A DNA stretch of 64,000 bases from Cetorhinus maximus (Eukaryota), in the NCBI RefSeq assembly GCF_964194155.1, contig NC_135904.1, forward strand, positions 34,782,001 to 34,846,000, written 5' to 3'. The position numbers were made by a program, and so were the translations under genes. Positions 5,996 through 61,350 of this stretch are shown here, one piece after another. How positions within the stretch are numbered: position 1 is the first letter of the stretch; each line of letters begins with the position of its first letter. Below the pieces are notes generated by a model. It made no database searches. It saw nothing but the letters and a program-made list of their open reading frames with translations, and had not been told where the DNA came from.

Positions 5996-6258
5996 ACTAA
6001 TAAATGTTTAGTGACATTCCTGGATGGGTGGTCAGACAGAAAGTTGCCAGCTTAGGTTGGGTGGATGAGAAAGGCTGAATGTAACTAAGCAGGACAGAGG
6101 GACATCCTTGTGAACAAAGGGGAGAGCTAAAAAATAAACGTAGAAAATAGGACAAGTAAAAAATTGCATTTAACGTGGATTAATATCCAACAGAAAACAG
6201 TCAATAGAAGAATAAGATAAAATTAAATTAAAACATTATGTATCGAAACATTTAAAGT

Positions 6259-6393
6259 CAAAAACAAAAACAGAATTACCTGGAAAAACTCAGCAGGTCT
6301 GGCAGCTTCTCTGCCGATGCTGCCAGACCTGCTGAGTTTTTCCAGGTAATTCTGTTTTTGTTTTGGATTTCCAGCATCCGCAATTTTTTGTTT
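6259..6393 (+). mobile_element. Mini Penelope-like terminal hairpin insertion
   Basis: Near-perfect ~45-bp inverted repeat (aaaacagaattacctggaaaaactcagcaggtctggcagc) with 18-bp TSD tatcgaa(a/g)catttaaagt at 6241-6258 and 6394-6411. Confidence 0.9.
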
Positions 6394-7849
6394 TATCGAA
6401 GCATTTAAAGTGACTTGCGAATGGGAATTTTATTTAAGACTTTCTGGTAATTCATTGGCTAGAAAGGCAGCTAGATGGTCAATAGTATTCAGTTACACAC
6501 TGAGTTCCAGCTTCACAGAATTACTCTTCACAATAAAAGGTTCAGTTTAAGATTTTCTATATAATTTTACGTATTAATAATAATATTTAAACAAACCTGT
6601 TGAAGATAGATGTAGTATTGTATCAACTAAAACTAAGATTACCTAAGATTAAAATTAAGAGAGATTAATCATGATTAATTTTGAAAACTTAGCAACCCTA
6701 TTATTTACAAGGTTAGGAGTTGTAAAACAATCTGTATTACTGTGGACACAGCACAATTGGCTGATATATCACCCGTGGATTGATTGACCTGTAACTGAAA
6801 TTTTTGTGCAAATAATTCCTACAAAGGACAGCATGTGTGGCAGGCATCTGTTGCATCATTATATAATAATTGCCTGCAACCATTTCTCATTGCCAGATGA
6901 TCTATTATAGGGTTTAGCTGGTTTTTATTGCAATGTATATCTTTAGCACCATCATTAAATTTGAACAATCTCATTCACTGCTCAGTAGAAGCTAAACAAA
7001 GGGAGTAAGACTTTCTAAAGTGTCACTAACGTCCAAAACTAGTCTCTCCAAATGCAAACCATCCTGATTTGCTACGGATGTATTAGCACATTCCAATTTG
7101 ACATTGCAATCACAACACTTAATCAATCACAATGTACTTATATTAAACTTCTGGGTAAATGGTTGCTTATAATGAACATTTTTGGTCCAAAACAAAATAC
7201 TTTCTGATCATCATAGAAAGACTTGGCAAGCACTCTATATTTCTACTATTTAAAGGAATACATTCCAATCTTAATCTTGGAATTCTGACAATTTGCTTTA
7301 ACCACTGAAACTGATAGAGATATGCCAGAAAAATGTCTACAGGTTCATTGCTATTATTCTGACTTTGGGTGCTGAAATTGAATTATGTCGCTGCATTAGA
7401 AGTGAAGAACAAACTATAGAAAATAAATGCCTAACTTTTTCTTTAGAATTCTAAGTATTCTGTTTGCAGTTTGACCTTCCTGCATTCTGGAATCGCTCCA
7501 TGAGCCTGATTTCAACTTATTTACCACTGATCAGATTGTGATGCTTTACAGGAGCTAGCTGAACAAGTTCTAAATTATTACTGAATTGTGCATGCATCTG
7601 TAAACATAACTTGTCCAGAAATCCAGCCTTCAGAACTGAAGGTGATTATAGATCTATAAATAATACTCTCAGTGCTGACTCTGGGGCTCCTGCTGCCAAG
7701 CTGCAAAACCTCAGCGCAGTTTTTGTTATTTTTGAAAGGCATGGATCTGCTGCTCAGAGCTCTGGGGAGCACAGGAACAAGCTGTACAGTGCATAGATCT
7801 GTTGATCACAACAATTCATAATTACATTGAAGATTTAATTGGTAAAACA

Positions 7850-8460
7850 CTCCACATGCTTTTCAAGGGTGTGATCATTCAAAATTGACATGGGGCCAAA
7901 AGAGACATCAGGACAGGTGACCAAAAGCTTGGACAAGAAGGTAGGTTCTAAGAAGCATCTTAAAGGTGAGAGTAGCAGCAAACTGGAGGGGTTTAGGGAG
8001 GAAATTCCAAAGCTTAGGGTCTAGACGGTTGAAGGCACAGCTATGAATAAAGGGGCAAAGGAAGTGGGGATGTGCAAGAAACCAAAATTTGTAAGAAGCA
8101 AAGTTCTCAGATGGCTGAGGAGCTGGAGAATGTTACAGAGGTAGGAAAGGGATTTGAACGTGATGACAAGAATTTTAAAATTTCGGCATTGGTTGATTTG
8201 GAGTTAATGTTGGTTGGTGACGATGGGTGAACGGGATTTAGCACAGGCTAGGTTAGGGGCAGTAGACTTTTGGATAAGCTCAAGTTTCTGGAGGGTTAGG
8301 GAAGTAGGCAGACTTTGTGCAGACAAGTGGTCAGCTTGACATTGGCCAGGGAGGAGAATGGAATCAGTGGCTAGGGATAAAAGACAATGGCTTCAGTCTT
8401 CCCAAGATTAACTGGAGAAAATTTCAGCTCTTCCAAGGGCGGATGTTGGTAAAGGCCAGG
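7850..8460 (-). mobile_element. Degenerate L2 LINE 3' fragment
   Basis: gtttagggaggaaattccaaagcttaggg is the reverse complement of the L2 tail; similar to 37650-38075. Confidence 0.6.
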
Positions 8461-8771
8461 AGAAACGTATGCAGTGCATGAATCAACTAACTGCATGGCT
8501 AGCAGTAAGTTATACAATACATAGATCAGCCACTCACTTGCCTTTATTCTGTCCTCATTTAATCCAAGTCCTTGTAACTAAGTATTATTTGCAGGTTTGG
8601 ACATTACGCTCCCTATTCCTGGTGTCCTGCATGTCGTAAGTGTATCACATTTCAGGATTTAAAATTATTTATCCACATAAACAATTTGCAAAAAAATGTT
8701 AATTTTAATATTAGAATTTATTTTCTTCTAAAGGAGAAACCTTGACAATGGATGGTTATATTAAAATGGGA

Positions 8772-8994
8772 TAAAAAAAAGCAAAAAGTGCTTGAAAAGC
8801 TCATGAGGTCAGCCAGCATCTTTGGAGAGAAACAGAGTTAACATTTCTGGTTGAGTGACCTTCTGATGAAAGGTCACTCAACCAGAAATGTTAACTCTGT
8901 TTCTCTCCACAGATGTTCGCTGACCTGCTGAGTCTGTCCAGCAGTTTTTGTTTTTTTTTAATTTCAGATTTCCAGGATCCACAGTTCTTTTGTT
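8772..8994 (+). mobile_element. Mini Penelope-like terminal hairpin insertion with a degenerate hammerhead core
   Basis: Palindrome centred near 8865 (gagagaaacagagttaacatttctggttgagtgacctt / aaggtcactcaaccagaaatgttaactctgtttctctc) with CTGATGA at the centre. TSD ttaaaatggga at 8761-8771 and 8995-9005. Confidence 0.85.
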
Positions 8995-11299: not shown

Positions 11300-11700
11300 G
11301 GTAAAAAAGAGACATGTTACCGAAGCTTTTCGTCTTGCGTTCATCAGGGCAGATGCCAAATTTCAAGGGTAGCATAACTTATGCTGCATGAGAAAAGGGT
11401 GCTGATTGGTTTACAAGTTAACTCTGATTCTTCAAGGCATTGCCATAGAGAATATACCAGAGAACTATTGTCCCCAATGCTTTTGTTTAATTCAAAAAAG
11501 GTGCAATGCCTAGACATGTTCCCTTTACTGCAGAGGACAAGTCCCTGCTCACTGAAACATTATCAATACACCTGGAAATGAACACTATGGAAATTAGAAC
11601 GAATTATGCTGTTGATTGTTGCTTCCTTTGAAATTTGGCATGAATGCAAGACGAAAAGCTTCGACAGTGTATTATTTCAGCAATACTCAAGCTCTGTACT
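11300..11700. mobile_element. Inverted-repeat remnant of a probable second Penelope-like family with a hammerhead-like motif
   Basis: Arms ~11321-11370 and ~11625-11665 are reverse complements (cgaagcttttcgtcttgc / gcaagacgaaaagcttcg; tgccaaatttcaa / ttgaaatttggca). Minus strand reads tgcc-CTGATGA-acgcaagac-GAAA-agct-tc-ggta. Confidence 0.55.
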
Positions 11701-11879
11701 AACAAGCGACTATTTGTATACCTGAAACAGAGGTACAGCAAAGACCAAATTTGGGATAACAACAACATAGTTTGATTCACAGGTAAATTAAGAACAGCTA
11801 AGTTATCTATTGAGTTTCTCCGAGAGTGTATTAGGCCCAGGGTTGTACTAGTGTTCATTTCCAGAAAAAATATGATGGA

Positions 11880-12790
11880 GATGGAGGAACTGGGAGTTCT
11901 GATGATGTAACCTTCTGCAACAATGCTTCTGAGTTGTCTGCTTTTTTTCCCTCAACAGGAGGACTCCTCCCCGCAGCCCCCTCCACCCCACTGCGGTTGA
12001 CAGGGCCCCCTCAATCGTGTCCGCCACATTTCCTTCGCTTTTGCTCTCACCCCTTCCCCTCCCTCCAAGAACCACGATAGGGTTCTCCTTGTCCTCACCT
12101 TCCACTCTACCAACCTCCATTTTCAATGGACAATTTGACGCTATTTCCGCTAACTCCAGTGTGATGCCACCACCAAACACATCCTCCCCGCCCTCCACTT
12201 TCAGCATTCCGGAGGGATTGTTCCCTCCGTGATATCCTGATCCGCTAATCAATCATCCCTGTCTAGTTCCCACAGCATCTTCCCATGCAAACGTGGAGAT
12301 GTAATATCAGTCCTTCTATCTCCACTTTCCTGACTATCTAAGGCCCCAAACACTTCTTTCAGGTGAAGCAACGATTTACATGTACTCCTTTCAATCTAGT
12401 GTACTGTAATCACTGCTCAAAATGTGGTCTCCTCTACATTGTGGACACCAAATGTAGATCACCCTATCACTGACCTTATTTTGTCTTGTCCCCCCAACCC
12501 TTGCTCAAAACCAACATCACTTCCAGTGGAAGGTCAGTGACCTGAAACATAGGCCGGGATTTTGTGGTCTTGCCCATGGCAGGAATCGTTGCAGGAGGAA
12601 CTGAAAATTTGACGAACTAGCCAAAGGTCCTTTGACTTCAGGCAGGAACTTCCAGTCCCTCGGCGGACGGGATTGGAAAATTCTGGCCGTTAACTCAGTT
12701 TCTCTCCACAGATGCTGCCATAACCTGTGTATTTCCAGCATTTTCTGTTTTTTATTTCAGATGTCCAGCATCCACAGCATTCTGCCTTTT
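11880..12790 (+). mobile_element. Older Penelope-like element 3' remnant
   Basis: Collinear with 24740-25300 (including a decayed GIY-YIG-coding region, VYCNHCSKCGLLYI) and ends in the same ttaact...ctctccacagatgctg...tttccagcattttctg terminus. Confidence 0.85.
12552..12688. mobile_element. ~137-bp Harbinger-type MITE inserted in the Penelope terminus
   Basis: TIRs ggccgggatttt / aaaattctggcc. The left TIR is identical to the start of the Harbinger at 48450. It splits the gaaac...ttaact motif. Confidence 0.75.
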
Positions 12791-20060: not shown

Positions 20061-20074
20061 TATCTGTGACCTAG

Positions 20075-23290: not shown

Positions 23291-23483
23291 TACATCTTTG
23301 GTTATTTTACAGTTTATTGAATTCAATTTCATAGAGCAGGCTTAAAAGGCCATAAAGCCCATTCATGCTCCCATTCGTATTTCCTCTATTCTTGTTCTTA
23401 CATTCACTACTATCATGGTGGGTTTTGCACTGAAAATTTCTTGACTAATAGTCCAGCACCATAACTACTACACTAATGTACTG

Positions 23484-26087
23484 AAACAAAAACAAAAATC
23501 TCAGCAGGTCTGACAGCGTCTGTGGAGAGAAAGACAGAGTTAACGGTTCAAGTCTGTCTGACTCTTCAGAGCTAAAGGGAAGTAGAAATGTGGTGAAATT
23601 TACACTGTTTAAGGGGGGGGTGGAGCAGGTGAAGGTGGTTAGGTGGCCAGTGATAGGTGTAGGCAAAGGAGATTGTGAAAGATGTCATGAACAAAAGGTC
23701 AAAGGGTTGTTAATATAGGTGGTGCTGGCTAAAGGGGGTGCTAATGGTGACATTGAGAGTGGAAAGCAGACTGTGATAATGGCAGGACCAGAGTAAACAC
23801 TCTGAAAAGTGACAGATGGCCCTAGTGGGGGTGGGGTGGGGGGAGGGGACAGTGGTGGGAAAAAAGATGGAAAAGGCAAAAAGCTGGGGATAAAATAATG
23901 AATAAAAATGGAAATAAGTTTGAAAAATAATAATAATGAAAATAAGTGGGGAAAAAATAAAAATTAAAAAATAAAACTGAATATAGAAAAAAGATGGGGA
24001 TCAAAAAGGGGTGGGGATGGAGGAGAGTTTTCATGGTCTAAAGTTGTTGAACTCAATGTTAAGTCCGGAAGACTGTAAAGTGCCTAGCCGGAAAATGAGG
24101 TGCGATTCCTCTGATGCCCGACATCATATCAATAATTTCCAGTTCCCTGGCCCTGACCGCCTCCTCTTCACCATGGACGTCCAATCCCTCTACACTTTCA
24201 TCCCCCACCAGGATCGTCTGAGGGTTCTCCGCTTCATCCTTGAACAGAGGCCCGAACAATCACCATCCACCACCACTCTCCTCCGTCTGGCTGAACTTGT
24301 TCTCTCACTGAACAATTTCTCCTTTAACTTGTCTCACTTCCTCCAAATAAAAGGTGTGGCTACGGGTACCTGCATGGACCCCAGTTACGCCTGTCTCTTT
24401 ATGGGGTATGTAGAACATTCCTTGTTCTGGCCCTACTCAGGCCCCCTCCCACAACTCCTTTCTTGGTACATCGATGACTGTTTCGGTGCCGCTTCTTGCT
24501 CTCTTCTGGACCTGGAAAACTTTATCAATTCTGCTTCCAATTTCCACCCCTCCATCATTTTCACGTGGTTCATCTCTGAAACTTCCCTTCCTTGACCTCT
24601 CTGTCTCAATTTCTGGTGATAGACTGTCCACCAATATTCATTACAAGCCTACCGACTCCCACAGCGACCTCGGCTACAGCTCCTCACATCCTATTTCCTG
24701 TAGGACTCCAACCCATTCTCTCAGTTCCTTCACCTCCGTCGCATCTGTTCTGATGATGCCACTTTCCAAATCAATCCTTCAGGCATGTCTTCCTTCTTCC
24801 TTAACCGAGGTTTCCCACCCACGATGGTTGACAGGGCCCTCAACCGCGTCCAACCCATCTCCCGCACATCCACCCTCACACCATCCTCTCCCTCCCAGAA
24901 CCATGATAGGGTTCCCCTTCTCCTCACTTTGCACCCCAACAGCCTCCGCATTCAAAGGATCATCCACCGCCATTTCTGCCAACTCCAGCATGATGCCACC
25001 ACCAAACACATCTTCCCTTTATCCTACCTGTCGGTAGTCCTTAGGGACCGTTCCATCCGGGACACCCTGATCCACTCCTCCATCACCCCCAACACCTCAA
25101 CCCCCTCCCATGGTACCTTCCCATGCAATCGCAGAAGGTGCAACACCTGCCCCTTTACTTCACCCCTCCTCACCATCCAAGGGCCCAAACATTCCTTTCA
25201 AGTGAAGCAGCATTTCACTTGCACTTCCCTCAATTTGGTCTACTGCATTCGCTGCTCCCAATGCAGTCTCCTCTACACTGGAGAGACCAAACACAGACTT
25301 TGGAACACCTTTGGTCTGTCTGCAAGCATGGCCCAGACCTTCCTGTCGCTTGCCATTTCAACGCGCCATCCTGCCCACATGTCCGTCCTTGACTTGCTGC
25401 ATTGTTCCAGTGAAGTTCAACACAAACTGGAGGAACAGCACCTCATCTTCTGATTAGGCACTTTACAGCCTTCCGGACTTAACATTGAGTGTAACAACTT
25501 CAGACCATGAACGCTCTCCTCCATCCCCACCCCTTTTTGATCCCCACTTTTTTTCTATATTCATTTTTATTTCTACTTATTTATTCTTTCCCCACTTATT
25601 TTCATTACTATTATTTTTCAAATTTATTTCCATTTTTATTCATTATTTTATCGCCAGCTTTTAGCCTTTTCAATCTTTTTTCCCACCGCCGTCCCCTCCC
25701 CCCACCCCACCCCCACTAGTGCCATCTGTCACTTTCCAGAGTGTTTACCCTGGTACTGCCATTATCACAGTCTGCTTTCCATTCTTAGTGTCACCATTAG
25801 CACCTCCTTTAGCCAGCACCACCTATATTAACAACCCTTTAACCATTTGTTTATGACATCTTTCGCAATCTCTCCTTTGCCTCCACCTATCGCTGGCCTT
25901 CTATCCAGCTTCACATACTCCACACCCCTTAAACAGTATATATTTCACCACATTTCTACTTCCCTTTAGCTCTGAAGAAGAGTCATACAGACTCGAAACG
26001 TTAACTCTGCCTTTCTCTCCACAGATGCTGTCAGACCTGCTGAGTTTTTCCAGCAATTTTTTGTTTATATTTCTGATTTCCAGCCTT
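23484..26087 (+). mobile_element. Penelope-like retroelement: 5'-truncated RT/GIY-YIG ORF preceded by an inverted copy of its 3' end
   Basis: RT motifs LFTMDVQSLYT, QIKGVATGTCMDPSYA, YIDDCF and FLDLSV..YKPTD; GIY-YIG-type NLVYCIRCSQCSLLYTGETK with upstream CxxxxCxxC. 23484-24110 is the reverse complement of ~25430-26070. Perfect 15-bp TSD tacactaatgtactg at 23469-23483 and 26088-26102. Confidence 0.95.
25968..26006 (+). ncRNA. Minimal type I hammerhead ribozyme motif in the Penelope terminus
   Basis: agct-CTGAAGA-a-gagtc-ataca-gactc-GAAA-cgtt-aact: core boxes, 5-bp stem II, palindromic AACGTT stem III region, one mismatch in stem I. Confidence 0.7.
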
Positions 26088-26289
26088 TACACTAATGTAC
26101 TGCACTCCTCTTCTTCATAGAAGCCCATGAGTCACTGACAGGCTCAATGGAGTAGTGTAGCCATTACTACAGAAACAATTGCTGTGCTATGGGGCAAAAT
26201 CACTGCAGAAGGAGTCTTGTACTGCAAAAAAGCAACAAATAATAACAGAAAGTAATGAAACGGAGATAATTTTCAAATTGCAGTATGGG

Positions 26290-35295: not shown

Positions 35296-35525
35296 AGATA
35301 AAAGCAAAATACTGCGGATGCTGGAAATATGAAATAAAAACAGAAAATGCTGGAAAAACTCAGCAGGTCTGACAGCATCTGTGCAGAGAGAAACAGGGTT
35401 AATGTTTCAGAGCTCTGCTTTGCAGCTCTGAAGAAGTCATGCGCACTTGAAACGTTAACTCTGTTTCTCTCTCCACAGATGCTGTCAGACCTGCTGAGTT
35501 TTTCCAGCATTTTCTGTTTTTGTTT
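35296..35525 (-). mobile_element. Mini Penelope-like terminal hairpin insertion
   Basis: ~70-bp inverted arms; CTGAAGA...GAAACGTT on the plus arm; flanking duplication ccaatccac at 35287-35295 and 35533-35541. Confidence 0.88.
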
Positions 35526-37158
35526 CACATCCCCAATCCACTTTAGGTTTAACAAAAGGCTGCTAGGAGGGCTGGCTTGAACATGAGGTATTCTGCTCTA
35601 ACACACACTGACATGCCTCAATCATTGATTCTGGCAGTTCATTCCACAACCTCGCAAAATCTGTAGATCAGTTTTCCGTGCTCTCTGTCCTAGATCTGTT
35701 CTATCTTACATCCAGTCATATGGGACATAGGCAACATCAGCCAATCAACAATCCAAATGTATCAAGCAGATCACTGATGTTTGTTCACCAGGACAAAATC
35801 TTATTATTTGCAGGGAACATGGCAGAACAAATCAGTGCAATTCATCCACATCGTAGGATTTCCCAAAGTCCGAGGCATCATCAAGGCTTTCACTCTAAGT
35901 TGGCGGTGGCCATCAGTCATCCCTTTGCCAGCTAGACGATTTTGTTTTGTGACAACTCTATCTGAATTATTTCAAAAAGGCAATCTCGAAGGGTGGGTCT
36001 GAGGGAACAAAGACTCCTGTTAATTATACCTGCAAAGGCCCATAGTCAGACAGCGAATGAAGATAAAATGATGACCCTGCATCAACCAAGCCGACTGAAG
36101 AAGACTAGTGCTACCTGGCAACAGCACTTCAGCTGACTGGGCATCCTCCCCAGTCAAAGAGTGTTAATGTGGAGGAACACTTCAGGCTGCACCAGAGGGT
36201 GAGGCAGGCAATAACCCTGAAGCCATCAATGTAAAATCAACTTTCGAGCCAGTCAATGTACTACACTGGAAAGAATGGGGTAATGAGAACCTCAGAGCGG
36301 CACCTGTGGCGGAGAGACTTCAGATTGGAGTCTAGGGCAAGAACACACACAGGGAAAGAAAAATAATATGGGGTAGGGAGTTAGTGAGTATTGGGATAGT
36401 AATGAATTGAGGGGGTGTTTAATCCCTGTGGAAAGTGAGCAGTGGCCATCTGGAAAGTGAATAGTTAGAACTGGAAAATGGGCAGAAGGAGTCCAGTGGG
36501 CACCAAAGAGAAGCGTCTGCTCGAAAAAGCTCCCTTATGCGTTAGGTCTAGATATCTAGCAAGTACAGCTCTGATCAGTTAGAATATTTACACTTTACAA
36601 CTATCAACTAATTATAAATGATGGCAACCAAAGCTGCAGGTAAGTAAGGAGTTTTCAAAACTCAATGTGTATAATAAAATGATGAAAGGCTCTTTGGCCA
36701 GCTAGTGACTGTCGGAACTAAAAATATTAATAATTGATAAGGCCAGAAATCCACCTGAAAACCTGGCTTTCAAACGACTTGAAAAAACTGAAGGAAGAAA
36801 GGCTTTAAGTGGTTGCGAGAGTGAGAGAGTGTTTTCAGCCAATTTGAATTCCTATTTGTACGAATATTTTTCTACAAGCTTTTTACATTGAAGCTTTCAA
36901 AGATCAAAGCCATATCAATCAAGCAAATCATTTACATTTTGGGATTAAACATACATATAAACAAAGATAAACACTATCTCGTTATTCAGAAAGAATCAAT
37001 ACACTCAGGATCCATGCTACAAAAATTCATAAATACCTGCAACTAAGCTTTTCATACTATTTTTTTTTAAAAAGATGCTATGGCAACATGGTTTATTATT
37101 CTATTATGTAAATAGCAAGTGGGGAAAACTCAGTTCATGAATTAGCCTATGTCCTTAC

Positions 37159-37448: not shown

Positions 37449-37623
37449 CTTATGTAAAAACAGAAAATGTTGGAAGAACTCAGCAGGTCTGACAACATCT
37501 GTGGAGGGAGAAATAGAGTTAACGTTTCGAGTCCGTATGACAAGGGTCACAGGTGCTGTCAGACCTGCTGAGTTTTTCCAGCATTTTCTGTTTTTTATTT
37601 CAGATTTCCAGCATTTTGCTTTT
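37449..37623 (+). mobile_element. Mini Penelope-like terminal hairpin insertion, ~190 nt from the ARNT2 acceptor at 37262
   Basis: Inverted arms aaaacagaaaatgttggaagaactcagcaggtctgaca / tgtcagacctgctgagtttttccagcattttctgtttt; TSD atctcaaagtg at 37438-37448 and 37624-37634. Confidence 0.88.
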
Positions 37624-42800: not shown

Positions 42801-42929
42801 AACTCCCATAAGTAAACTCAGGTGTCTCACATGAAAGGCAAGAATACACATCAAACTAAAGCTCATGTAGTTGGGTAGCAGTGTCCTTATCAAGGATAAT
42901 GGCTGCTATAAAATACTGACCAAACAAGG

Positions 42930-45035
42930 TAATCACACTTGGGAATGAATTGGGCCAGGTAGATCAAGTGACAGTGGGGGAACCTTTAGGGGGCAGTGAT
43001 CATTGTATCATAAGGTTTAGGATGACGATGGAAAATGACATTGGTCAATCCAGAGTAAGAATAACCAACTGGTGGAGAGCGGATTTCAATGGGGCAAGAA
43101 CAGAGCTTGGCCGGATAGACTGGAACCAAAGGCTGGTGGGAAAAACAGTAGCTGAACAATGGGCTACCTTCAAAGAGGAGATGGTTTGGGTAAAGTCAAG
43201 GTATGGTCCCTCAAAAGGGAAAGGTAGGACAAACAAATCCAGAGCTCCCCGGATGACAAAGGAGATAGAAATTAAGTTAAAGAAGAAAAAGTGTGCTTAC
43301 GACTGGTGTCAGGTAGCAAATACAATTGAGAACCAAGCTGAATACAGAAGATTCAGAAGGGATGTGAAAAAGCAAATACGAGAAGCAAAGAGAGATTATG
43401 AAAAAAGACTGGCAGCTAACATAAAAGGAAATCCCAAAGTATTCTATAAGAACATCAATAGTAAAAGGGAGGTAAAAGGAAGAGTAGGGCTGATTAGAGA
43501 CCAAGAAGGGATTTACACATAGACGCAAGCTGCATGGCTGAGGTGTTAAATGAATACTTTGCATCTGTCTTTACCTACGAGGCAGATGCTGCCCAGGCCA
43601 TGGTGACAGAGGAAGAAATTCAGTCACTAGAAGTGTTTAAAATTGATAAGAAGGAGGTATTGGATAAGCTGTCAGTACTTAAAGTCAATAAGGTACCGGG
43701 AGAGGATGAGATGCAACCAAGAATATTGAAGAAAGTGAGTGTGGAAATTGCAGAGGCACTGACAATAACCTTTCAATGTTCCCTGGATTCGGGGAGGTGC
43801 CAGAGGACTGGAGAATTGCAAACGTTATGCCCTTGTTCAAAAAAGGTTGTAAAGATCTGCCCTGCAATTACAGACCAGTCAGTTTAACTTCGGTGGTGGG
43901 GATACTTCTAGAAACAATTATTCGCGATAGAATTAATAGTCACATGAAAAAATGTGGATTGATTTGGAAGAGTCAGCTTGGGTTTGTTAAAGGAAAATCT
44001 TGTCAAATGAACTTGGAGTTTTTTGAAGAGGTAACAGAGATGGTTAATGGGGACAAGGTTGTTGATGTGGTGTACATGGACTTCCAAAAGGCGTTCGATA
44101 CAGTGACACACAACAGACTTGAGGAAAGTTATAGGTCATGGAATAAAAGGGACAGTAGCAAAGTGGACAATTTCAAAGTTTGTGGATGACGCAAAACTTG
44201 GGAGAATTGCAAAATGTGAGGAGAACAGTGTAGAACTTAAAAAGGACATTGACACTTTGGTGGAGTGGGCAGATAGGTGGTAGATGAAGTTCGATGCGGA
44301 GGAGTGTGAGGTGTTACACTTTGGTACAGAGAACATGGAGAGACAGTATAAAATAAGGGACACTATTCTAAAGGGTGTGCAGGAACAGGGAGACCTGGGT
44401 GTATATGTATATAAGTCAATAAAGGTGGCAGAACGGGTAGAGAGAGCTATTTCTAAAGCACATAGTATTCTAGGCTTCATTAGTAGAGGCATAGAGTACA
44501 TTGGTTAGACCTCAGCTGGAGTACTGTGTACAGATCTGGGCGCCACACTATAGGAAGGATGTGAATGCATTGGAGAGTGTGCAGAAGAGGTTTACGAGAA
44601 TGGTTCCAGGAATGGGACACTTCAGCTATGAGGAAAGATTGGAGAAGTTGGGACTGGTTTCCTTGGAGAGGAGAAGGCTAAGAGGAGGCATGATAAAAGT
44701 TTTCAAAATCTTGAGGGGTCTGGGCAGAGTAGATAGGGAGAAACTGTTCCCGCTCCTAAACGGATCAAGAAACATTTTAAAGTGTTTTGCGAAAGAAGCA
44801 AATGCGAGGTGAGCGAAAGCTTTTTCACCCAGCGAGTAGTTAGGGTTTGGAATGCACTGCCTGGAAGTGTGGTGGAGGCAGATTCAATTGGGGCATTCAA
44901 GAGGGCATTGGATGATTATTTAAATAGAAACAACGTGCAGGGTTACAGGGAAAAGGCAGGAGATTAGCACTAGGTTAAGCCGGTGCAGACACAATGGGCT
45001 GAATGGCCTCCTTCTACACCTTAACAATTCTGTGA
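42930..45035 (+). mobile_element. Classic CR1 LINE ORF2 (endonuclease end through RT), 5'-truncated pseudogene
   Basis: LGGSDHCIIRF, NYRPVSLTSVVG, VYMDFQKAFD, VRPQLEYCVQIWAPHY, FFTQRVVRVWNALP; frameshifted. Confidence 0.93.
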
Positions 45036-46094: not shown

Positions 46095-47575
46095 TGTATC
46101 CTTACTGGCTACGGGTGAGACCCCAGAGGACTGGAGAATGGCCAATGCTGTTCCATTGTTTAAGAAGGGTAGCAGGGATAATCCAGGAAATTACAGGCTG
46201 GTGAGCCTTACGTCAGTGGTAGGGAAATTATTGGAGAAGATTCTTCGTGACAGGATTTATTACCATTTGGAAGCAAATGGGCGTATTAGTGAGAGGCAGC
46301 ATGGTTTTGTGAAGGGGAGGTCGTGTCTCACTGGCTTGATCGAGTTTTTCAGGGAAGTGACAAAGATGATCGACGATGGAAGGGCAGTGGATGTTATCTA
46401 CATGGATTTCAGTAAGGCCTTTGACAAGGTCCCTCATGGTAGACTGTACAGGAGGTAAAGTCGCACGGGATCAGAGGTGAGCTGGCAAGATGGATACAGA
46501 ATTGGCTTGGTCATAGAAGACAGAGGGTAGCAGTGGAAGGGTGATTTTCTGAATGGAGAGCTGTGACTAGTGGCGTTCCGCAGGGATCAGTGTTGGGACC
46601 TTTGCTGTTTGTAGTATACGTAAATGATTTGGAGGAAAATGTAACTGGGCTAATTAGTAAGTTTGCAGACGACACTAAGGTTGGAGGAGTTGCAGATAGT
46701 GAAGAGGATTGTCAAAGGATACAACGGGATATAGATCGGTTGGAGACTTGGGCGGAGAAATGGCAGATGGAGTTTAATCTGGACAAATGCGAGGTAATGC
46801 ATTTTGGAAGGTCTAATACAGGTAGGAATTATACAGTAAATGGCAGAACCCTTAAGTCCATTGACGGGCAGAGGGATCTGGGAGTACAGGTCCACAGGTC
46901 ACTGAAAGTGGCACCACAGGTGGATAAGGTAGTCAGGAAGGCATATGGCATGCTTGCCTTCATTGGCAGGGGTATTGAGTATAAAAGCTGGGAAGTCATG
47001 CTGCAGCTGTATAGAACCTTGGTTAGGCCACACTTAGAATATTGCGTGCAATTCTGGTCGCCACATTACCAGAAGAATATGGAGGTGTTGGAGAGGGTGC
47101 AGAGGAGGTTTACCAGGATTCTGCCTGGTCTGGAGGTTATTAGCTATGAGGAGAGGTTGGAGAAGATCGGATTGTTCTCACTAGAACGACGGAGATTGAG
47201 GGGCGACTTAATAGAAGTTTACAAAATTATGAGTGGTATGGACAGAGTAGATAGTCAGAAGCTTTTTCCTAGGGTGGAAGAGTCAATTACTAGGGGACAT
47301 AGATTTAAGGTGAGAGGAGAAAACTATAGAGGAGATGTGCGGGGCAAGTTTTTTATGCAGAGGGTAGTGAGTGTCTGGAATTCGCTGCCAGAGGAGGTGG
47401 TGGAAGCAGGTACGATAGTGGTGTTTAAGAGGCAGCTTGACAAATACATGAATAGGATGGGAATAGAGGGATACGGACCCCGGAAGTGCAAAATGTTTTA
47501 GTTGACGGGCAATATGATCTGCACAGACTTGGAGGGCCGAAGGGCCTGTTCCTGTGCTGTACTTTTCTTTATTCT
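46095..47575 (+). mobile_element. Young classic CR1 LINE 3' half; 312-codon open RT segment at 46563-47501
   Basis: YMDFSKAFDKVPHGRL, SGVPQGSVLGPLLF, KFADDTK, tail gggccgaagggcctgttcctgtgctgtac; few disablements. Confidence 0.95.
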
Positions 47576-48445: not shown

Positions 48446-48449
48446 GATT

Positions 48450-51400
48450 GGCCGGGATTTTCCGTCCCCGTTGGTGTCGGGCGTCATGACAGGTGTCAGC
48501 GGACAGTATGGCAGGCAGGCTAAAAATCAGTTTCACGCTGTTGTGAAACCAGTTAGTGATCGTCCGTACCGCCTGTCAATGGCAGGCTGCGTTTCCCCCC
48601 ACCAGACGCTGGGAAGGTCATTTTAATACATCTGCATACCATTATATGCCCTGCTCGCCAGAATCATCCCCCAAGCTGGATCATCTGGGCATGCGGGCAT
48701 GATTGCACACTGACGTGTTTCACAACAGCATTTAAAAGGCATGCACTTGGCGAGCTGAATTTCAAGGGGGACTTGGAGGTGACTGCACACTAACACTGCG
48801 TAGTGCTCACGAGGGTCGCCCATTCAGCTTCAAGGAAGAGTCGCCGTGCATTCAGGCGAGGGAACGGGCAAGTCGCTTTTTCCCAGTTGACTGACTGACA
48901 GTGTGGTGCCGGGGCACTGCGGCTGGGGCGAGTTGGGGAGGGGGGGAAAGGCAGCCCGATCTGATGGTAGTGCACAACCACATGTAAGTAAGGGTTGCCG
49001 GGGGGGGTGTCGGTGAGGGAAGCGGCCGCACATTAAGGAAACCTTCTATAAAGTGACCATTTTTCTGCAGCTGAGACAGTTCAGGTGCAGCCGCATTGAC
49101 ATGCATGGGGTCGGGCGTCTAGCTTATCTGCCCACTCAAGCAGCGCAGAGGCATGAAAATGTCACCAAATGCTCCAGGGCTTTTCACCCCTCAGGCACAG
49201 GCTGCAAACTAATGAGCGTTTTAGTGGACTGCAGGACAATTGGATGACTGGGCAAGTTGTACAATCTCCTTGTGAAAGCTGGCTATGGAGCAGTCACTGG
49301 TGGAGGCGCACACAGCCCCTTGCAATGTCATCATTCAGGTTTGGACCAGTCCCCACCAAGTTCAAGCTAACAGTGCAGCCTTGGGTTAAGAGAATGCCCT
49401 CGCCTGAACTGAGAGCACAGCATGCAGCCCAGTGGGCAAAGCTGCCACCACCTGGTTAGGTTGAATAGGGCGGATCAGGTTGGGGTTTCGGGCAGGCATG
49501 CAGGGCACTAATATCTGGCCATCCAAGTGATGGCTAGCACACTCTGGGATGCATTAAGGGGCCTTCTGATTTAACCAAGAGAGTTTCTTAGTACACCCAT
49601 GCTAACCCATGCATCTCTTTCAGCCTGCAGGAGGAGTATATCAGGAGCATGGAGCCTGGTAACCTAGCTGTATGCTTCATGGCTTATAGAGAGCGGAGAC
49701 AAAGGAGACGAGAGCAAGGAGGCACCTGGCTGGGCAGAGGGAGGAGCAGCACTCTCAAAACGAAGAGGCAGCTGGAGCTCCAGAGCAGTTCGCTGAAGCT
49801 ACAGTGAGCCATTGTTGGTCAGTGCCTAGCTAGACCCAGGGTCTATAGACGGCTCTGGTCATTCCTCCGAATGACGGAGGAGTGTCTCCGAAAGCTGCGC
49901 ATTTCCAGGGAACTGGTCGGTCATCCTAATGCAGGATTTGGCACCACGGGAACATGGAGGGCATCCACTGTCAGTGGCCATGAAAGTGACTGTGGCACTC
50001 AATTTTTATGCCAGTGGCTCCTTTCAAGGCTCTACAGGTGACCACTGTAGGATATTGCAAGCGTCCACACACAAATGCATCCAAGAGGTCACGGATGCCA
50101 TATTCTCAAAGGCACACAACTTTGTGCATTTCACCCGGGATCAGGGAAGCCAGGAAGCAAGAATGCTGGGATTTGTCCAGATCTCTGGTTTCCCACAAGT
50201 GCAAGGCGTCATCACGTGGCACTCAGATCTTCATGGCAACATGCGGTCAACTATGTCAACCGCTCGCCGAATGTTCTGCGCACGGTTCCCAGGGAATGTC
50301 CACGGCTCCTACATTCTCAGTAGGTCTCAGGTCCCTGACATCTTCCAGGGTCCACAAAGGCTGCAGGGTTGGCTCCACGGGGACAAGGGCTACTCACATC
50401 GGACGTGGCTGATGACGGACGTGGCTGATGATGCCCGTACAGTGGCCTCAGAGTGCAGCAGAGAGAAGGGACAACAAAGCTCATGCTGCAACATGCACTT
50501 TGGTGGAGCAAACCATTGGAATGTTGAAAGTGAGGTTCTGGTGCCTGGACCGGTCTGGTGGAGCCCTGCAATACAGCCCACAGAGTGTGTCACGCATCGT
50601 CATCGTGTACTGTGCCCTTCATAACCTGGCACTGCAAAGGGGAGAGGAGCTGGCTATAGAGAAGATGGAGGAGCTGCAATCTCCTCCGATGAGGATGACG
50701 ACAATGGGGATGAGGGTGAGGAGGTCCTCGAAGACGAAGATGATGGCGATGAAGCCATCGGGTTGTTCAGGCTAGGCAGACGCGCTCAGGAGGCCCTCAC
50801 AGCCACTAGATTCCTGGAGGATGATGACAGCATGCAGTGAGGACACTCCATAAATCCTCACATTGGATCTGTAAGCATTTGACTCCTGTCTGGCTGTTGA
50901 CAGTGCACATACCCTCTGTGGTAAGTCTCCTGTCATGGAGACACAGCAGATGCCCATAGTCCCTACAGTCCAGGAGGATGATGATGATGACATATAGTGG
51001 GGACACTCCATAAATCCTCACATAGCTTATGTGAATGTCTGACCCCTGTCTGGCTGATGGCAGGCCGCTTGCATTCTGAACAGGGTCAAATCACGGAGAT
51101 GCAACGATGAAACTTTAACTTTTCCTGATCCTGTGGCATCCTTCATGAACTGAGCCCTTCAGGACCATACCGTCACCGGGCACAGATGCTGAGAGCACAC
51201 ACAGAGAGAATGACAGAACTCTGAGCCGCCAGCCCAGGACATTCTGGCAGCAAATGATAAGCCCCATCGAGTTGCAGGCATGAATGATGTGTCCAGTGAC
51301 TGTGAAGGCGTACCATCAGTGTGCTGGGAAGGTTGCATAAAGCACAGGGAAATGGCCTTGGACTGAGACACCTGCCTTTATCTTGTGCAGGGACCAAGGT

Positions 51401-53420
51401 TTCACATCTGATTTACACAAGCACTGTTCATCAGAACAAGGAGCCATAGGCAGGGAGACATTCTTGGGAGTTATTTACAACAATGAACATTACTTACAAG
51501 TGATTAACACCCATGCCCAGGCTGTGCAACTAAGTCTTCTTAACCTTCCTAACCCTGCCACTACATCCTGGTGCTCCCCCAACATCCACAGCGGAGGTGG
51601 AGGCAGCCTGCTGACTGCTACGCCCTGTCTGTGATGACCTTGATTGGCATCCTCTGTAAGGCCCTGGCCTGCTTTTGGGTCCTGCTGTGTGGCAGTGGCA
51701 CCCTCCTCAGCCTGTGGAGCTGGAGCTGCTAGGATCACCTGGGTGGATGGCCCCGGGGTGTGCACCTGCTGATCCTTCTTCCTATGGGTGCCCAAGGGCC
51801 CCTGGCTGACTCCGAGGAGAAGGGGAAGCTGGAGTCAGATCGAGCTGCACCCCACCAACCCTCTCACGTTGACTCTGTTGGAGGCCAACTATGACGTCAG
51901 CCCGCGCAGCAGTGCAGGGCCGATGTCCTGGACAAAGATCTCCATGGTGGCCGCCACCCTACAAGTGTCAACCTTGGTGCATTGGCATGCCTGCTATCCC
52001 CTCAGCCTGAAGGCGGATGGAATCCTCCATCATACCTTGCAATCTGAGGAATGCAGCGGACATCCCTTCCTGATGTTCCCGAGCTTGTCTTTGCAGCTCC
52101 AGCAACTGAGGTATGACTGAGTCCGAAGGCTCCTCATCTGACTCAGGCTCAGCAGATTTCTGGTCTCCAGCAGTCCTCTCAGTGCTGAAAACCTGGGAAG
52201 TCCCTGTTACCGCCTGCTGTGGATCAGAGTGTGTGATGTGCTCACCAGATTGTGACCCTGGGGCTACTCTAGAACTAGGTCCCAAAGTGCTCTAGATGTG
52301 GTCTCACCAACACCCTGTACGAATTCTTGCAGGACTTCCTGACTTTTATACTTCGTCCCCCTTGCAAGAAAGGCCAACATTCCATTTGCCTTCCGAAATA
52401 CTCGCTGTATCTGTTAGTGTCCATTTTATGATTGATACACGGGGACATCTAGATTCCTCTGTACTGCAGCATTCTGCAGTCTCTCTCCATTTAAATAATA
52501 TTCTGCTCTTCTATTCTTCCCAGCAAAGTGGACTCTCAAATTGTACTCCATCAAATTTTCACCCATTTACTTAACCTTTCCATATCCCTTGCAGACTCTG
52601 TGTCCTCACACTTTGCTTTCCTACATATCTTTGTATTGTCAGAAAATTTGGCTGCAATGCACTCTGTCCCTTCAGCTAAATCATTAATATAGGTTGTAAA
52701 TAGTTGAGACTCCAGCACTGATCCCTGTGTCACCCCTCCAGTCACAGTTTCCCAACCTGGAAATGACCCATTTCCTGACATACTGTTTCCTGTTAGTTAG
52801 TCAATCATCTATCCATGCTAATATATCACCCCCAACACCATCAGCTCTTACCTTGTGTTTGCTTTTATGTGGCACCTTATCAAATGTCTTTTGTATATCC
52901 AAATACACTACATATACTGTTCCCTTTATCCAACCTGCTTGTTACACTCTCAAAGAACTCTAATAAATTAGTCACATACAATTTCCCTTTCAAAAACCAA
53001 GCTGACTCTGTTTGATTGAAATATGATTTCTGAAATGTCCTACTATTAATCCCTTAATAGTGGGTCCCAGCATTCTCCCAAAAACAGATGTTAGGCTAAC
53101 TAGCCTATAGCTTCCTGCTTTGTCTTTCTCCTTTCCTGAATAGAGATGTTACATTTGCAGTTTTCCAATCCACCGGGACCTTTACAGAATCTAAGGAATT
53201 TAGGGTCAGGGAGCATAGGGGCCCTCCCTTCCCAATGCCGGGTCCCTCTATCAGGCAATGAGCGCCCTTGAACAAGAGAACCCGTACCTGAGAGCCCGCA
53301 AGCAAACACACCAGGTTTGTCGGGCCAGGGTGGGGAGGACAAGGCTCTTAGTGGGCATTAATTTCCCACTTAAGAGCCTCCATGAGCAGTGGGGCAAGGC
53401 GGCCATCTACGGCTGAGTTT
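48450..53420 (+). mobile_element. PIF/Harbinger transposon: decayed DDE transposase (~49650-50830, +), convergent second-gene remnant (~51490-52300, -), nested CR1 (~52310-53200, -)
   Basis: KVTVALNFYASGSFQ, ISGFPQVQG, WLHGDKGY, VEQTIGMLKVRFWCL, CALHNLA. Left TIR ggccgggattttcc. The coiled-coil LLELQRQAREHQEGMSAAFLRL fits the usual Myb/SANT partner gene, but the Myb domain itself is not seen. Right end uncertain. Confidence 0.88.
50816..51057. repeat. Tandem duplication (~160-bp period) just after the transposase
   Basis: gaggatgatga...ggacactccataaatcctcacat...tgac(t/c)cctgtctggctg occurs twice. Confidence 0.8.
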
Positions 53421-57749: not shown

Positions 57750-58850
57750 CATTATGGCCAAGGTGCGTTACTCATCTTGTCCTATTCACATCTTTGCAAC
57801 CTTTGAAACTGTCGACCACACCATCATCTTTCAACATCTCTCCTCCTGTTCAAAAACAAAAATTCCTGGAAAAACTCAGCAGAACCTGTTCTGTTGAAGG
57901 GTCATTCGGACTCGAAACGTTAACTGTGTTCCTCTCCACAGATGTTGCCAGACCTGCTGAGTTTTTCCAGGTATTTTTGTCTTGGATTTCCAGCATCCGC
58001 AGTTTTTTGCTTTTTTCTTCTCCTGCTGTCCAGCTCCAAGGGGCTGCTCACTTGCTTCCATTCTTATCTATCCAAATGTAGCTACAGCATCACCAGCAAT
58101 AGCATGTCTTCTCACCAATGCACTACTATCTCCAGAGTCTCTCAAGAATCTATCCTCGTCTTCCCTCTGTCTATTCCGCATCTGTCTGTAAATGGGAGTC
58201 AGATTCGACATATATACCAGTAACAGCCAATTTTCCCTCTGCACTGCTTCCCTTGGCCCCTTCACTGCCACTGTATTGTCAGACTACTGCCCAACATCCA
58301 GCCCTGGATGCTCTATATTTTTTTTCCAGTTAAACATGGAGAAGGCTGGAACCTTTGATTTCAGCCCCCTCCATAAATTCCACAACATCATAGCCAAGTC
58401 CATCCCCCTCCCAGCTTCGTCTTAGCTTGAATCAGGCTGTTGGAAATCTGAGAATTCCATTCAACCAAGGTGAAGTCCTGATCTCATATCCTCTCAAATC
58501 AAAGACCTAATCCCACCTCCACAGCCCCATCCGCCTCCATCCATACTTCAGCCCATCTGCAGCTGAAACTTTCGTCCATGCCTATTTCACCTCTAGACTC
58601 GACAACTCCCACTGTCTCCTTGCCAGCCACCTATTTCTTTCAGCCCTCCATAAATTCAACTAATCCAAAATTCTGCTCTCAGTATCCCATCGCACACCTG
58701 GTACCACTGACCCATCACTCCTGTTCTTCTGGACCAGGCTAGCTTCTGGTATCTCAGTGCCGCCAATTAATTCTCACTCAAGCATCCTAACCACCGGCAG
58801 CCCTTCAACCCACCAACCTGCACTGCCCCCACTAAAACTGTTCCCTTTTA
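57750..58850 (+). mobile_element. L2 RT remnant
   Basis: Pyrimidine-rich; gtccatgcctatttcacctctagactcgac (VHA..TSRLD). Confidence 0.6.
57853..58018 (+). mobile_element. Mini Penelope-like terminus with a short inverted arm and hammerhead-like motif
   Basis: gtt-CTGTTGA-a-gggtc-attcg-gactc-GAAA-cgtt-aac; imperfect TSD tctcct(c/g)ctgt(t/c)ca at 57839-57852 and 58019-58032. Confidence 0.85.
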
Positions 58851-59774
58851 AAACCCACCAGGCTCACCGGTGTTTTGGTGACCCCTCTGAATATCTCTTT
58901 TGACTAGGCATCCATCTTTTCCTAACTTCACCTCTGTGAAATGATTGGCAACATTTTTCCATGTTGGTGACTCTGTTGTTGTTAGTGTATGCTTCAGTAA
59001 CTTCAACAACACTTTTTTTGTCCTGAAGCCCTGGATTTTTTTCAAAGCCTGAGATTGAGGTAAATATTTCCTCCAAAACTTTCACAACATTTAAGGGAAT
59101 TGCCAACTAATCCATACCTGTCCAAATATGGACTGAAATGACAGCGTAACTGATCAATTTTCTACTGCATACCATGACTACAGTTATGCCCGTTATGCTA
59201 TGAGAATGTACATAAGGCACGATATATTAAGTTGAATTGGCCACTGTTGAATTTGTTAGCATGATCTTTGCGAGTGAGTAGAAAATAGTAATGGTCCGTT
59301 CACCTGTGTCCTGTGTCCTGCATTCCTAAGACAAGATATAGGCAATAAAATAAGCAAAAGCCTGTAATTATAAGAGGTCAGGTATGAGATTTGTACTTAT
59401 TGCAAACATTCCAATGGTACAAATACCTACGATTATCAAACCATTGGCAGGATGAACATCATTCAGAGAATCTTGTAACTTCTTCTGATCCTATGGTCAT
59501 CATTATGATCAAGGGACGAGGAACCTTGAAATAGTGCGAAGGAAGACCCCTGGGTAATGCTTATCAAACATATGGAATGCTAGACATCTTTGTAGTTTTG
59601 TAGCAGTCAAAAAGAGCATTTTGAAACAATTCATAGGGACTCTGTCCATAAGGGGTGATATCATCCTTGTACACCCACAGAGCTAACAGGGAGTAGCCAA
59701 TCCCACAAGTTCTGAACACATGTACAGAGCAGCATAAGAAAGACATATCTTTCTTTGTTCCTTGCTGTATAACC

Positions 59775-60595
59775 GGATATCTCAGTCCTGGGAAATCGCT
59801 GCAAGAGTTCCTCGGGGTAGTGTCCTAGGCCCAACCATTTTTAGCTGTTTTCATCAATGCCCTTCCTTCCATCATAAGTTCAGAAGTGGGAATGTTCACA
59901 GATGATTGCACAATGTTCAACACCATTCACAGCTGATCAGATACTGAAGCAGTCTGTACCTGTATGCAGCAAGACCTGGACAACATTCAGGCTTGGGCTG
60001 ATAAGCCATATAAATACTGTAGCTACAAGAGGTCAGAGGTTGGGAATTTTGCAGAGAGTAATTCACCACTTGTATCTCCAAAACCTGTCCACCACCTACA
60101 AGGCACAAGTCAGGAGTGTGATGGAATGCTCTCCACTTTCCTGGATGAGTGCAGCTCCAACAACACTCAAGAAGCTCAACATCACCCAGGGCAAAGCAGC
60201 CCACTTGATTGGCAGCCTATCCACTACCTTCAACATTCACTCCCTCCACCACCATTGCACAGTGGCAGCAGTGTGTATCATCTACAAGATGCACTGCAGC
60301 AGCTCACCAAGTCTCCTTTGACAGCACCTTCCAAACTCGTGACCTCTGTCACCTAGAAGGATGAGAGCAGGAGATGCATGGGAACATCATCATCTCCTGC
60401 AAGTTCCCCTCCAAGTCACACGCCATCCTGGCTTGGAATTATATCACTGTTCCTTCACTGTCACTGGGTCAAAATCCTGGCACAGTGGGTGCTCAAGAAG
60501 GCAGCTCACCACCACCTCTCAACAGCAATTAGGAATGGTCAATAAATGCTGGTCTAGCTATCAACACACACATCGCATGAACAAATAGTTTAAAA
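59775..60595 (+). mobile_element. Family-B LINE 3' fragment
   Basis: YKAQVRSVMECSPLSWMSAAPTTLKKL and shared tail. Confidence 0.88.
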
Positions 60596-60610
60596 AAATG
60601 TTAGCCAACA

Positions 60611-61350
60611 TGTCAGGCGTTGCATTTTTCCCCTGGGCATCAGACCAGTGCTCCAGGTGTGAACAGAGACTACAGGGGTCCAGCTGGGCTGGGTGAGAGA
60701 AAGGCTTGAGAGTATCGTTCAGGGAACGTGTAACCCTTTAGTCTCCTTTTTTTCCTTAGTTCTGTTGAAGAGTCATACGGACTCGAAACGTTAACTGTGT
60801 TACTCTCCGCAGATGCTGTCAGACCTGCTGAGTTTTTCCAGGTATTTTTATTTTTGCCTTTAGTCTCCTGGTTCAGTTAAAGCAGAGAGCTAGAGAAGTG
60901 CTGGTTTTTTGTTGTTGGGTTAAAGACAGAATGCCTGAGTGAAAGAGACTAGTTGTTTATTGTGGGTTAAAGAAAAGAGATTGGAGAGCAAGGCTGGGGA
61001 CTGTGTGGAAGATTTAGCTTTGTGGATATCGTTCAGACAACTAGATATGATTTCCAGCATCCGCAGTAGATATGTGAACTTCAAGCTCATAGTTTAAAGT
61101 AAGACAGGCCGGTTGTCCTGTGGATTGGGAGGATTCTGCTTCTGTGGAGTATTTATAATATTAAGACACAACTGAATTGAAAGGGGTCAGTTTGTAAGTT
61201 TTGTTTTTCATGGTGTTATTCGTTTGTTCATCAACTAATGTGCTATTCATATCCTTGTGATTTTGAGGCATAGTTCAATTAAGTTAAATCAAGAATTTTG
61301 TAAACCCAAATCTCTGCGCCATTGTTTACCCTATTCGAGTCCTCGTAACA
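60611..61350 (+). mobile_element. Possible solo LTR
   Basis: Begins tgtcagg and ends cgtaaca, with LTR-like composition; no TSD found. Confidence 0.4.
60748..60856 (+). mobile_element. Mini Penelope-like terminus consisting largely of the hammerhead motif (60758-60796)
   Basis: agtt-CTGTTGA-a-gagtc-atacg-gactc-GAAA-cgtt-aact with perfect stems I and II; perfect 13-bp TSD cctttagtctcct at 60735-60747 and 60857-60869. Confidence 0.9.

What the first reader, a model, noticed from the sequence alone, without database searches (positions are those of the whole stretch)
6241..61074. Graded series of TSD-flanked Penelope-terminus insertions, from 2.6 kb down to 17 nt
Seen: the same terminal sequence occurs at 6259, 8772, ~12700, 23484-26087, 35296, 37449, 57853, 60748 and 61050. 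Eight copies have their own flanking duplication (8-18 bp), and most short copies are fold-back hairpins whose inversion point differs between copies. Established: PLEs integrate by target-primed reverse transcription and often carry inverted terminal copies and hammerheads. Inference: these are independent, extremely truncated insertions made by a reaction that routinely adds an inverted copy of the 3' end. They look like MITEs or pre-miRNAs but would be retro-derived, or else a non-autonomous ribozyme-bearing family mobilised by the PLE RT.
Basis: partly seen in the sequence, partly recalled or inferred. Interest (0 to 1): 0.7.

Follow-up and report, generated by a model that had tools for sequence, protein, structure and literature searches.

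The report
Two-armed Penelope retrotransposon insertion stubs
These short repeats are separate insertions of the ribozyme-bearing end of a Penelope-type jumping gene, and one is absent in two related species; their two-armed layout is known in print and is likely made when both cut DNA strands copy the element's RNA from two neighbouring start points.

Summary
Eight of nine listed copies have their own target duplication (8-18 bp). Two related species lack the 6259 hairpin and keep one copy of its 18-bp duplication (4 of 4 runs). The ~12700 copy is the split end of an older, longer element, not a stub.

In 1.62 Mb of this genome, 161 loci include 33 head-to-head pairs and no tail-to-tail pair. 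All 31 independent pairs have one tailed and one tail-less arm. In 17 of 31 the tail-less arm reaches further in, so neither arm contains the other. The 6259 junction recurs at 17 unrelated sites, with the tail on either side (13:4). Inner ends pile up at the start of the hammerhead, not at its cut site.

Best reading: each hairpin is built at insertion from two cDNAs primed by the two nicked strands (inferred, about 0.6). It is not a MITE or a mobile hairpin family. The layout (inverted end, one-sided tail, duplication) is published for Penelope-like elements; I found no paper with this mechanism. This scan reached the same reading on other DNA of this and other genomes.

The parts
6241..6258 (.). 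Left copy of 18-bp target duplication (right copy 6394-6411, 1 mismatch)
   Evidence: relatives join 6240 to 6394 and keep one copy
6259..6393 (.). Young 135-nt head-to-head stub: tail-less arm left, tailed arm right; arms 42/43 identical; no hammerhead core
   Evidence: absent in organisms B and C
8772..8994 (.). Older 223-nt head-to-head stub centred on the hammerhead core; 11-bp duplication 8761-8771/8995-9005
   Evidence: both junctions present in relatives' contigs
11987..12789 (+). Older decayed element: ORF remnant 11987-12452, terminus split by an inverted-repeat element at 12552-12688, tailed end to 12789; no duplication found
23484..24111 (-). Inverted tail-less arm (622 aligned bases, 89.7% to 25430-26049) of the 2.6-kb insertion; left duplication 23469-23483
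24104..26087 (+). 5'-truncated, frameshifted Penelope-like element: RT motifs, CX4CxxC linker, C-terminal GIY-YIG region, 3' UTR, hammerhead, tail with an internal deletion; right duplication 26088-26102
25968..26006 (+). Minimal type I hammerhead motif: helix I strands 25968-71 and 26003-06, core 25972-78, extra A, helix II 25980-94, GAAA, palindromic helix III; predicted cut after 26002
   Evidence: read from sequence against the description in PMC4209133; no Rfam hit; cleavage untested
35296..35532 (.). 237-nt head-to-head stub, tailed arm left; both arms reach the hammerhead 5' edge; 9-bp duplication 35287/35533
37449..37623 (.). 175-nt head-to-head stub; tail-less left arm reaches 38 nt further in than the tailed right arm; 11-bp duplication; junction unique in the genome
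57853..58018 (.). 166-nt head-to-head stub; 14-bp duplication with 2 mismatches (57839-57852/58019-58032)
   Evidence: absence in organism C inferred from contig arithmetic only
60748..60856 (+). 109-nt single tail-less stub starting just upstream of the hammerhead; 13-bp duplication
   Evidence: right junction shared with relatives
61050..61066 (+). 17-nt piece of the tail between 8-bp direct repeats (61042/61067); possibly the remnant of a longer tail-only insertion
   Evidence: no 25-nt gap in relatives' contigs
61912..61969 (+).

Best explanation
These are separate, dead insertions of the terminus of a Penelope-like retrotransposon, and each hairpin was likely assembled at its landing site from two cDNAs, one primed by each nicked target strand. 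Shown: variable 8-18 bp duplications; a 135-nt hairpin that arrived as one unit at a single-copy site; two outer end points about 33 nt apart; one tailed and one tail-less arm in every pair. Inferred steps: (1) the endonuclease nicks both strands about 11-15 bp apart; (2) one 3' end starts at the tailed site and the other at the tail-less site, most likely on the same RNA; (3) synthesis stops early or runs off the RNA 5' end near the hammerhead's first helix, which would make the ~100-140 nt arms copies of the transcript's leader; (4) host end joining links the two cDNA ends through a few complementary bases. Single-arm and tail-only stubs would be cases where one primer made little or no cDNA.
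For: Empty site: one contig in each of 4 of 4 runs (organisms B, C) joins 6240 to 6394, skipping 153 nt = 135 + 18. Duplication score >=8 in 22 of 33 pairs and 16 of 85 short singles, against 4.8% of 600 flank swaps. Orientation: 33 head-to-head, 0 tail-to-tail among 161 loci. 31 of 31 independent pairs have one tail; short singles are 32 tailed and 37 tail-less, so chance is about 4e-10. The tail-less arm reaches >=9 nt further in 17 of 31, the tailed arm in 6, and 8 are within 8 nt. The 6259 junction occurs at 17 sites with unrelated flanks, tail on the long arm in 13 and on the short arm in 4, so the asymmetry is not a later deletion. The farther arm stops within an 11-nt zone at helix I in 20 of 31, and 10 of 16 duplication-bounded singles start within a 21-nt zone there. 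Genome-wide exact counts keep 0.78, 0.62, 0.56, 0.775 of copies per 3-nt step across that zone. Target-to-element microhomology averages 1.55 nt at tailed ends (null 0.43) and 1.09 at tail-less ends (null 0.37). PMC11167929 (parts 1-2 of 4 read): a PLE protein cuts and extends both strands, starts at two adjacent internal sites that bound the tail, and is predicted to be a dimer.
Against: No reaction was run; one RNA versus two was not resolved. Arms are only modestly more alike than arms of other loci: own arm ranked in the top two in 6 of 27 (2.1 expected), mean identity 0.86. Only 16 of 85 short singles show a duplication. The test for a cap-derived G at the 5' pile-up failed (G 97, A 108), so 'RNA 5' end' is unconfirmed. 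The pile-up also sits on a pyrimidine tract plus YAG, where the D. virilis intron ends (PMC4209133). Subfamily variants lower the exact-match counts in the 0.56 step. Arm starts were read by eye. PMC11167929 saw no start-site difference between strands, which does not by itself explain strict one-of-each pairing. 3 of 46 tail-less ends lie far upstream.
Confidence: 0.6

Rival explanations
1. Fold-back or self-priming: one cDNA (or an antisense RNA, as proposed in PMC3846280) snaps back and copies itself; the tail is trimmed from one end on resolution, and centres erode later.
For: Junctions use short self-complementary stretches; the 6259 centre folds as a small stem with a 6-nt loop. Arms share subfamily markers, 72/72 in one young pair. 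Palindromes are known to lose their centres (recalled).
Against: The copied arm must lie within the template arm; 17 of 31 pairs break this. The same junction occurs with the tail on the short arm in 4 of 17. Four pairs have a tailed arm that is little more than the tail, beside a long tail-less arm. Tail-less singles carry their own duplications.
Confidence: 0.17
2. Two separate RNPs or RNAs, one per strand, each start independently and their cDNAs are joined.
For: Explains non-nested arms equally well. The protein is a predicted dimer (PMC11167929). Arm kinship is only modest.
Against: Independent starts would give tailed+tailed or tail-less+tail-less pairs about half the time; 0 of 31 were seen. 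No clearly discordant young pair was seen (by eye).
Confidence: 0.15
3. A non-autonomous hairpin or retrozyme-like family that is transcribed and re-inserted as a unit by the PLE enzyme.
For: One junction recurs 17 times. PLE ends can mobilise sequence in trans (PMC3846280 passage). Animal retrozymes derive from PLE ends (bioRxiv 10.64898/2026.07.22.740005, abstract and passages).
Against: The 17 copies differ in tail side, tail subfamily and junction variant. The 37449 junction is unique. Only 1 tandem locus among 161. The 6259 hairpin lacks the hammerhead core. Identical hairpins on C24 share their flanks and so are segmental copies.
Confidence: 0.05
4. MITEs (DNA transposon derivatives) or chance hairpins.
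For: Short, ORF-less, terminal inverted repeats; strong folding (z -15.3).
Against: Duplications of 9-18 bp, variable. Outer ends scatter over two zones and are unequal. The sequence is the terminus of an RT-GIY-YIG element.
Confidence: 0.01

Closest known systems
EN+ Penelope-like element insertion unit with inverted pLTR, one-sided 30-40 bp tail and TSD (Pen2a_Av, PMC3846280 passages; Fig. 2 legend and text of PMC8557442, passages)
   Same: Head-to-head inverted truncated copy, tail on one end only, TSD, hammerhead in the pLTR, pLTR overlapping the ORF start, partial tandems in full-length copies.
   Different: Here the whole unit is often only 124-257 nt with no ORF. It is abundant enough (33 short pairs in 1.62 Mb) to show non-nested arms and an inner boundary, which those passages do not describe.
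Poseidon element of Anolis in vitro (PMC11167929, parts 1-2 of 4)
   Same: Two adjacent internal start sites bounding the tail; both strands cut and extended; AT-rich targets (duplications here 68% AT against 56% background).
   Different: A different clade; inverted products and end joining were not addressed in the parts read.
Neptune/Nematis-type PLEs (PMC8557442 passages)
   Same: [quoted passage not shown]
   Different: No tree was built, so Neptune versus Nematis is not settled.
Non-LTR retrozymes (bioRxiv 10.64898/2026.07.22.740005, part 1 of 5 and passages)
   Same: Short, non-coding, type I hammerhead, derived from PLE ends.
   Different: Retrozymes are defined as tandem arrays; these are single or head-to-head and show no sign of spreading as units.
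L1 twin priming (recalled, not read here)
   Same: A second target strand primes on the RNA and yields an inversion joined by microhomology.
   Different: L1 inverts non-overlapping RNA segments; here both arms start about 33 nt apart and copy the same segment twice.

Membership tests
EN+ Penelope-like elements | Single ORF with RT and C-terminal GIY-YIG endonuclease | tested here: met
   RT and GIY-YIG-region motifs read in window frames and in the near-complete copy L109. Pfam support is weak and below cut-offs: RVT_1 E 2.4e-5 on L109, GIY-YIG E 0.14 on the window; none at E 0.001.
EN+ Penelope-like elements | pLTR from partial tandem, overlapping the ORF start | tested here: met
   20 of 20 loci chosen for the ORF start are preceded by a variable-length copy of the terminus.
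EN+ Penelope-like elements | Inverted 5'-truncated copy and 30-40 bp tail on one end | tested here: met
   31 of 31 independent short pairs.
EN+ Penelope-like elements | Variable-length TSD created on insertion | tested here: met
   9-18 bp in 55 loci; single-copy empty site for 6259.
EN+ Penelope-like elements | RT phylogeny within PLEs | not tested
   No named reference set was at hand; no tree built.
Neptune/Nematis clades | CX2-5CxxC linker between RT and EN | tested here: met
   CX4CxxC in window frame 24704-25453 and in L109; does not separate the two clades.
Minimal type I hammerhead of PLEs | Core CUGANGA and GAAA, extra base before helix II, short helix I, palindromic helix III | tested here: met
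   Read at 25968-26006 against PMC4209133; helix I has one C-A mismatch in this copy; no Rfam hit.
Minimal type I hammerhead of PLEs | Self-cleavage | not testable with these tools
   0 of 16 duplication-bounded singles start at the predicted cut site.
MITE | Fixed termini and constant short TSD | tested here: not met
Non-LTR retrozyme | Tandem units each with a hammerhead | tested here: not met
   1 tandem locus of 161
pre-miRNA | Expressed and processed small RNA | not testable with these tools
   No RNA holder listed.

The most novel reading that the evidence does not exclude
Endonuclease-bearing Penelope elements integrate by double-start priming. One enzyme complex nicks both strands and copies one RNA twice from two fixed sites about 33 nt apart, and the stubs are run-off copies of the transcript's hammerhead leader. 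This would explain the long-unexplained inverted ends and one-sided tail of the whole class, and the roughly 80,000 short pairs extrapolated for this genome would be its fossil record.
Probability: 0.45. Interest if true: 0.7.

Novelty: new member of a known kind. Interest (0 to 1): 0.42.

Why it matters
PMC8557442 calls the tandem/inverted structures of Penelope-like elements the product of still undefined features of their cycle, and PMC3846280 offers self-priming on an antisense template. The stubs give large-sample constraints that this proposal does not meet: non-nested arms, one tail per pair, and one junction with either tail side. They also turn the question into a direct assay with the published in vitro system. 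In practice, tens of thousands of such hairpins could be misfiled as MITEs or pre-miRNAs. The elements themselves are ordinary dead repeats.

Tried and rejected
Cap-derived G at the 5' pile-up: 97 exact copies with G against 108 with A before the motif, and about 20 of the G copies lie in repeated small contigs; rejected. Hammerhead cleavage as the 5' boundary: 0 of 16 bounded singles start there. The apparent peak at GAAA in old copies reflects divergence upstream or an inserted inverted-repeat element (output partly cut). A spliced leader exon captured upstream of the YAG: no shared upstream sequence seen by eye in 60 loci beyond a recurrent CTGA; not shown. Rfam: no hit. PDB sequence search: nothing relevant. 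Expression: no RNA holder listed. Empty site for 57853 in organism C: a contig stops at 57842 with 62 unlaid letters and others start at 58055, which fits a 180-nt skip (166 + 14), but the joint was not displayed. Dropped rows: 2 of 33 pairs (tandem duplicates of one locus) before counts of 31; 43 of 161 loci (long, running into the ORF, or at an edge) before the duplication test; 4 of 31 pairs with under 25 nt overlap before the arm-identity test. Ten literature searches listed no paper on shark PLE hairpin stubs or on two-start priming. Subscription journals are not covered, and no supplements were read; those of the bioRxiv preprint are closed and may list shark families.
Full report
Setting. 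The window lies on contig C27 of a 3.99-Gb genome.

Observation. All nine listed places carry the same terminus. Eight have flanking duplications: 18 bp (6259), 11 (8772), 15 (23484), 9 (35296), 11 (37449), 14 with two mismatches (57853, by eye), 13 (60748) and 8 (61050). The 12688 copy has none. It ends an older element whose ORF remnant lies at 11987-12452 and whose hammerhead is split by a 137-bp inverted-repeat element. A decayed tenth copy lies at 61912.

Parent element. 24104-26087 is a 5'-truncated, frameshifted RT-GIY-YIG element with a CX4CxxC linker, preceded by a 622-base inverted copy of its end. A near-complete copy (L109) and 20 loci chosen for the ORF start show that the terminus is the pseudo-LTR: hammerhead, then the ORF start, then a ~33-nt tail that continues into the ORF. 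Pfam support is weak; the assignment rests on motifs and architecture as described in PMC8557442 (passages).

Sample. I searched 1,624,000 bases: the window, 300 kb beside it and 1,260 kb from round coordinates on other contigs. A profile of the terminus found 161 loci, with 0 decoy hits at E<1: 127 single, 33 head-to-head, 1 tandem, 0 tail-to-tail. Long inverted units count as two singles. The extrapolation of about 400,000 loci and 80,000 short pairs is rough, because the sample leans to small chromosomes. Of 118 short loci, 38 have a duplication score of 8 or more (22 of 33 pairs, 16 of 85 singles) against 4.8% of 600 flank swaps. In 55 non-redundant loci, 22 of them from the selected sets, duplications are 9-18 bp and 68% AT. 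Outer ends fall in two zones: 44 of 45 tailed ends within 15 nt, and 43 of 46 tail-less ends within 22 nt, about 33 nt upstream.

Empty site. Two other organisms, about 4% diverged, hold this region. In all four runs laid, one contig goes from 6240 straight to 6394, omitting the hairpin and one copy of the duplication. The 8772 copy is present in them. The right junction of 60748 is shared, and their contigs show no 25-nt gap at 61050. Their contigs are a net 20 nt longer somewhere in 60833-61838. If that lies at 61067, the 17-nt copy is a remnant of a full tail; this is unresolved.

Asymmetry. After dropping two tandem duplicates, all 31 pairs have one tailed and one tail-less arm. Singles are 32 tailed and 37 tail-less, so independent choice would give this with probability about 4e-10. 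With arm starts read by eye, the tail-less arm reaches at least 9 nt further in for 17 pairs and the tailed arm for 6; 8 are level. A fold-back copy must lie within its template, and 17 pairs do not. Later loss of the centre could mimic this. But the 6259 junction, in three close variants, occurs at 17 sites with unrelated flanks, 13 with the tail on the long arm and 4 on the short arm. Duplications were found by script for 12 of these and by eye for 5. So this junction is primary, forms anew, and works with either tail side. The 37449 junction is unique. Arms are more alike than chance but not decisively (top two in 6 of 27, 2.1 expected).

Inner boundary. The farther arm stops within 11 nt at the hammerhead's first helix (window 25963-25973) in 20 of 31 pairs, and none goes beyond. 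Ten of 16 bounded singles start in a 21-nt zone there, and none at the predicted cut. Exact genome counts fall 4807, 3744, 2323, 1297 over successive 3-nt steps; the next step keeps 1354 of 1747. That is 0.78, 0.62, 0.56, 0.775, about 43% excess loss, partly inflated by subfamily variants. A polymerase moving toward the 5' end would meet the ribozyme's other edge first, so an RNA 5' end is the simplest cause (inference). Against it, the cap-G test failed. The site is also a pyrimidine tract plus YAG, the position where the D. virilis intron ends (PMC4209133, parts 1-2 of 4). In that element the start lies 46 bp upstream of the intron (PMC2377424 passages).

Mechanism. PMC11167929 (parts 1-2 of 4) shows a PLE protein cutting and extending both strands from two adjacent internal start sites that bound the tail. 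Joined with the counts above, the best model is that each nicked strand primes at one of the two sites, probably on one RNA, and the two cDNA ends are joined by microhomology (0.6). Rivals: fold-back or antisense self-priming as in PMC3846280 (passages; 0.17), two independent RNAs (0.15), a mobile hairpin or retrozyme (0.05; bioRxiv 10.64898/2026.07.22.740005, part 1 of 5 and passages) and MITE (0.01).

Novelty. The layout is published. Ten searches listed no paper with the miniature forms or this mechanism. I recorded my reading before consulting the scan's notes. There, 166 findings in at least 20 genomes hold the search words, and several listed ones reach the same model; they are unchecked and are not counted as support.

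Noticed in passing
window 12552-12688: 137-bp element with 12-bp imperfect terminal inverted repeats inserted in the hammerhead's palindromic helix III; similar ends abut the same motif in about five other old copies in the sample (by eye). Harbinger-like MITE is a recalled label.
   Followed up: partly
window 59221-59486: 266-nt stretch skipped by contigs of organism C in two runs: a lineage-specific insertion unrelated to the Penelope ends.
   Followed up: no
window 46545-47501: 318-aa open RT frame (Pfam RVT_1 E 1e-13) of a CR1-like LINE (label recalled); related decayed pieces at 42920-44812.
   Followed up: no
window 80-876 (-) and 49875-52291 (+): Frames that look like decayed Harbinger-type transposase and partner genes (recalled; 49875-50624 had no Pfam hit).
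   Followed up: no
L002-L006, L008, L009, L012 (contig C24): Eight copies of one hairpin with shared flanks: an old insertion carried along by segmental duplication.
   Followed up: partly
L193-L196 (C25:40.00-40.04 Mb): About 19.5-kb tandem duplication that carries the same hairpin three times.
   Followed up: no
L239-L268, upstream of the match at about 1500: Ten of 30 copies with A before the hammerhead motif have CTGA there, repeating part of the core; two continue into normal upstream sequence. Subfamily variant or re-priming at the RNA end; unexplained.
   Followed up: partly
window 25950-25969: Pyrimidine tract plus TAG directly before the hammerhead, conserved across subfamilies; a candidate splice acceptor at the position of the D. 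virilis intron end.
   Followed up: partly
L255, L256 and the L167-L168 pair, junction spacers: Spacers between arms repeat nearby element sequence, like templated insertions left by end joining.
   Followed up: no
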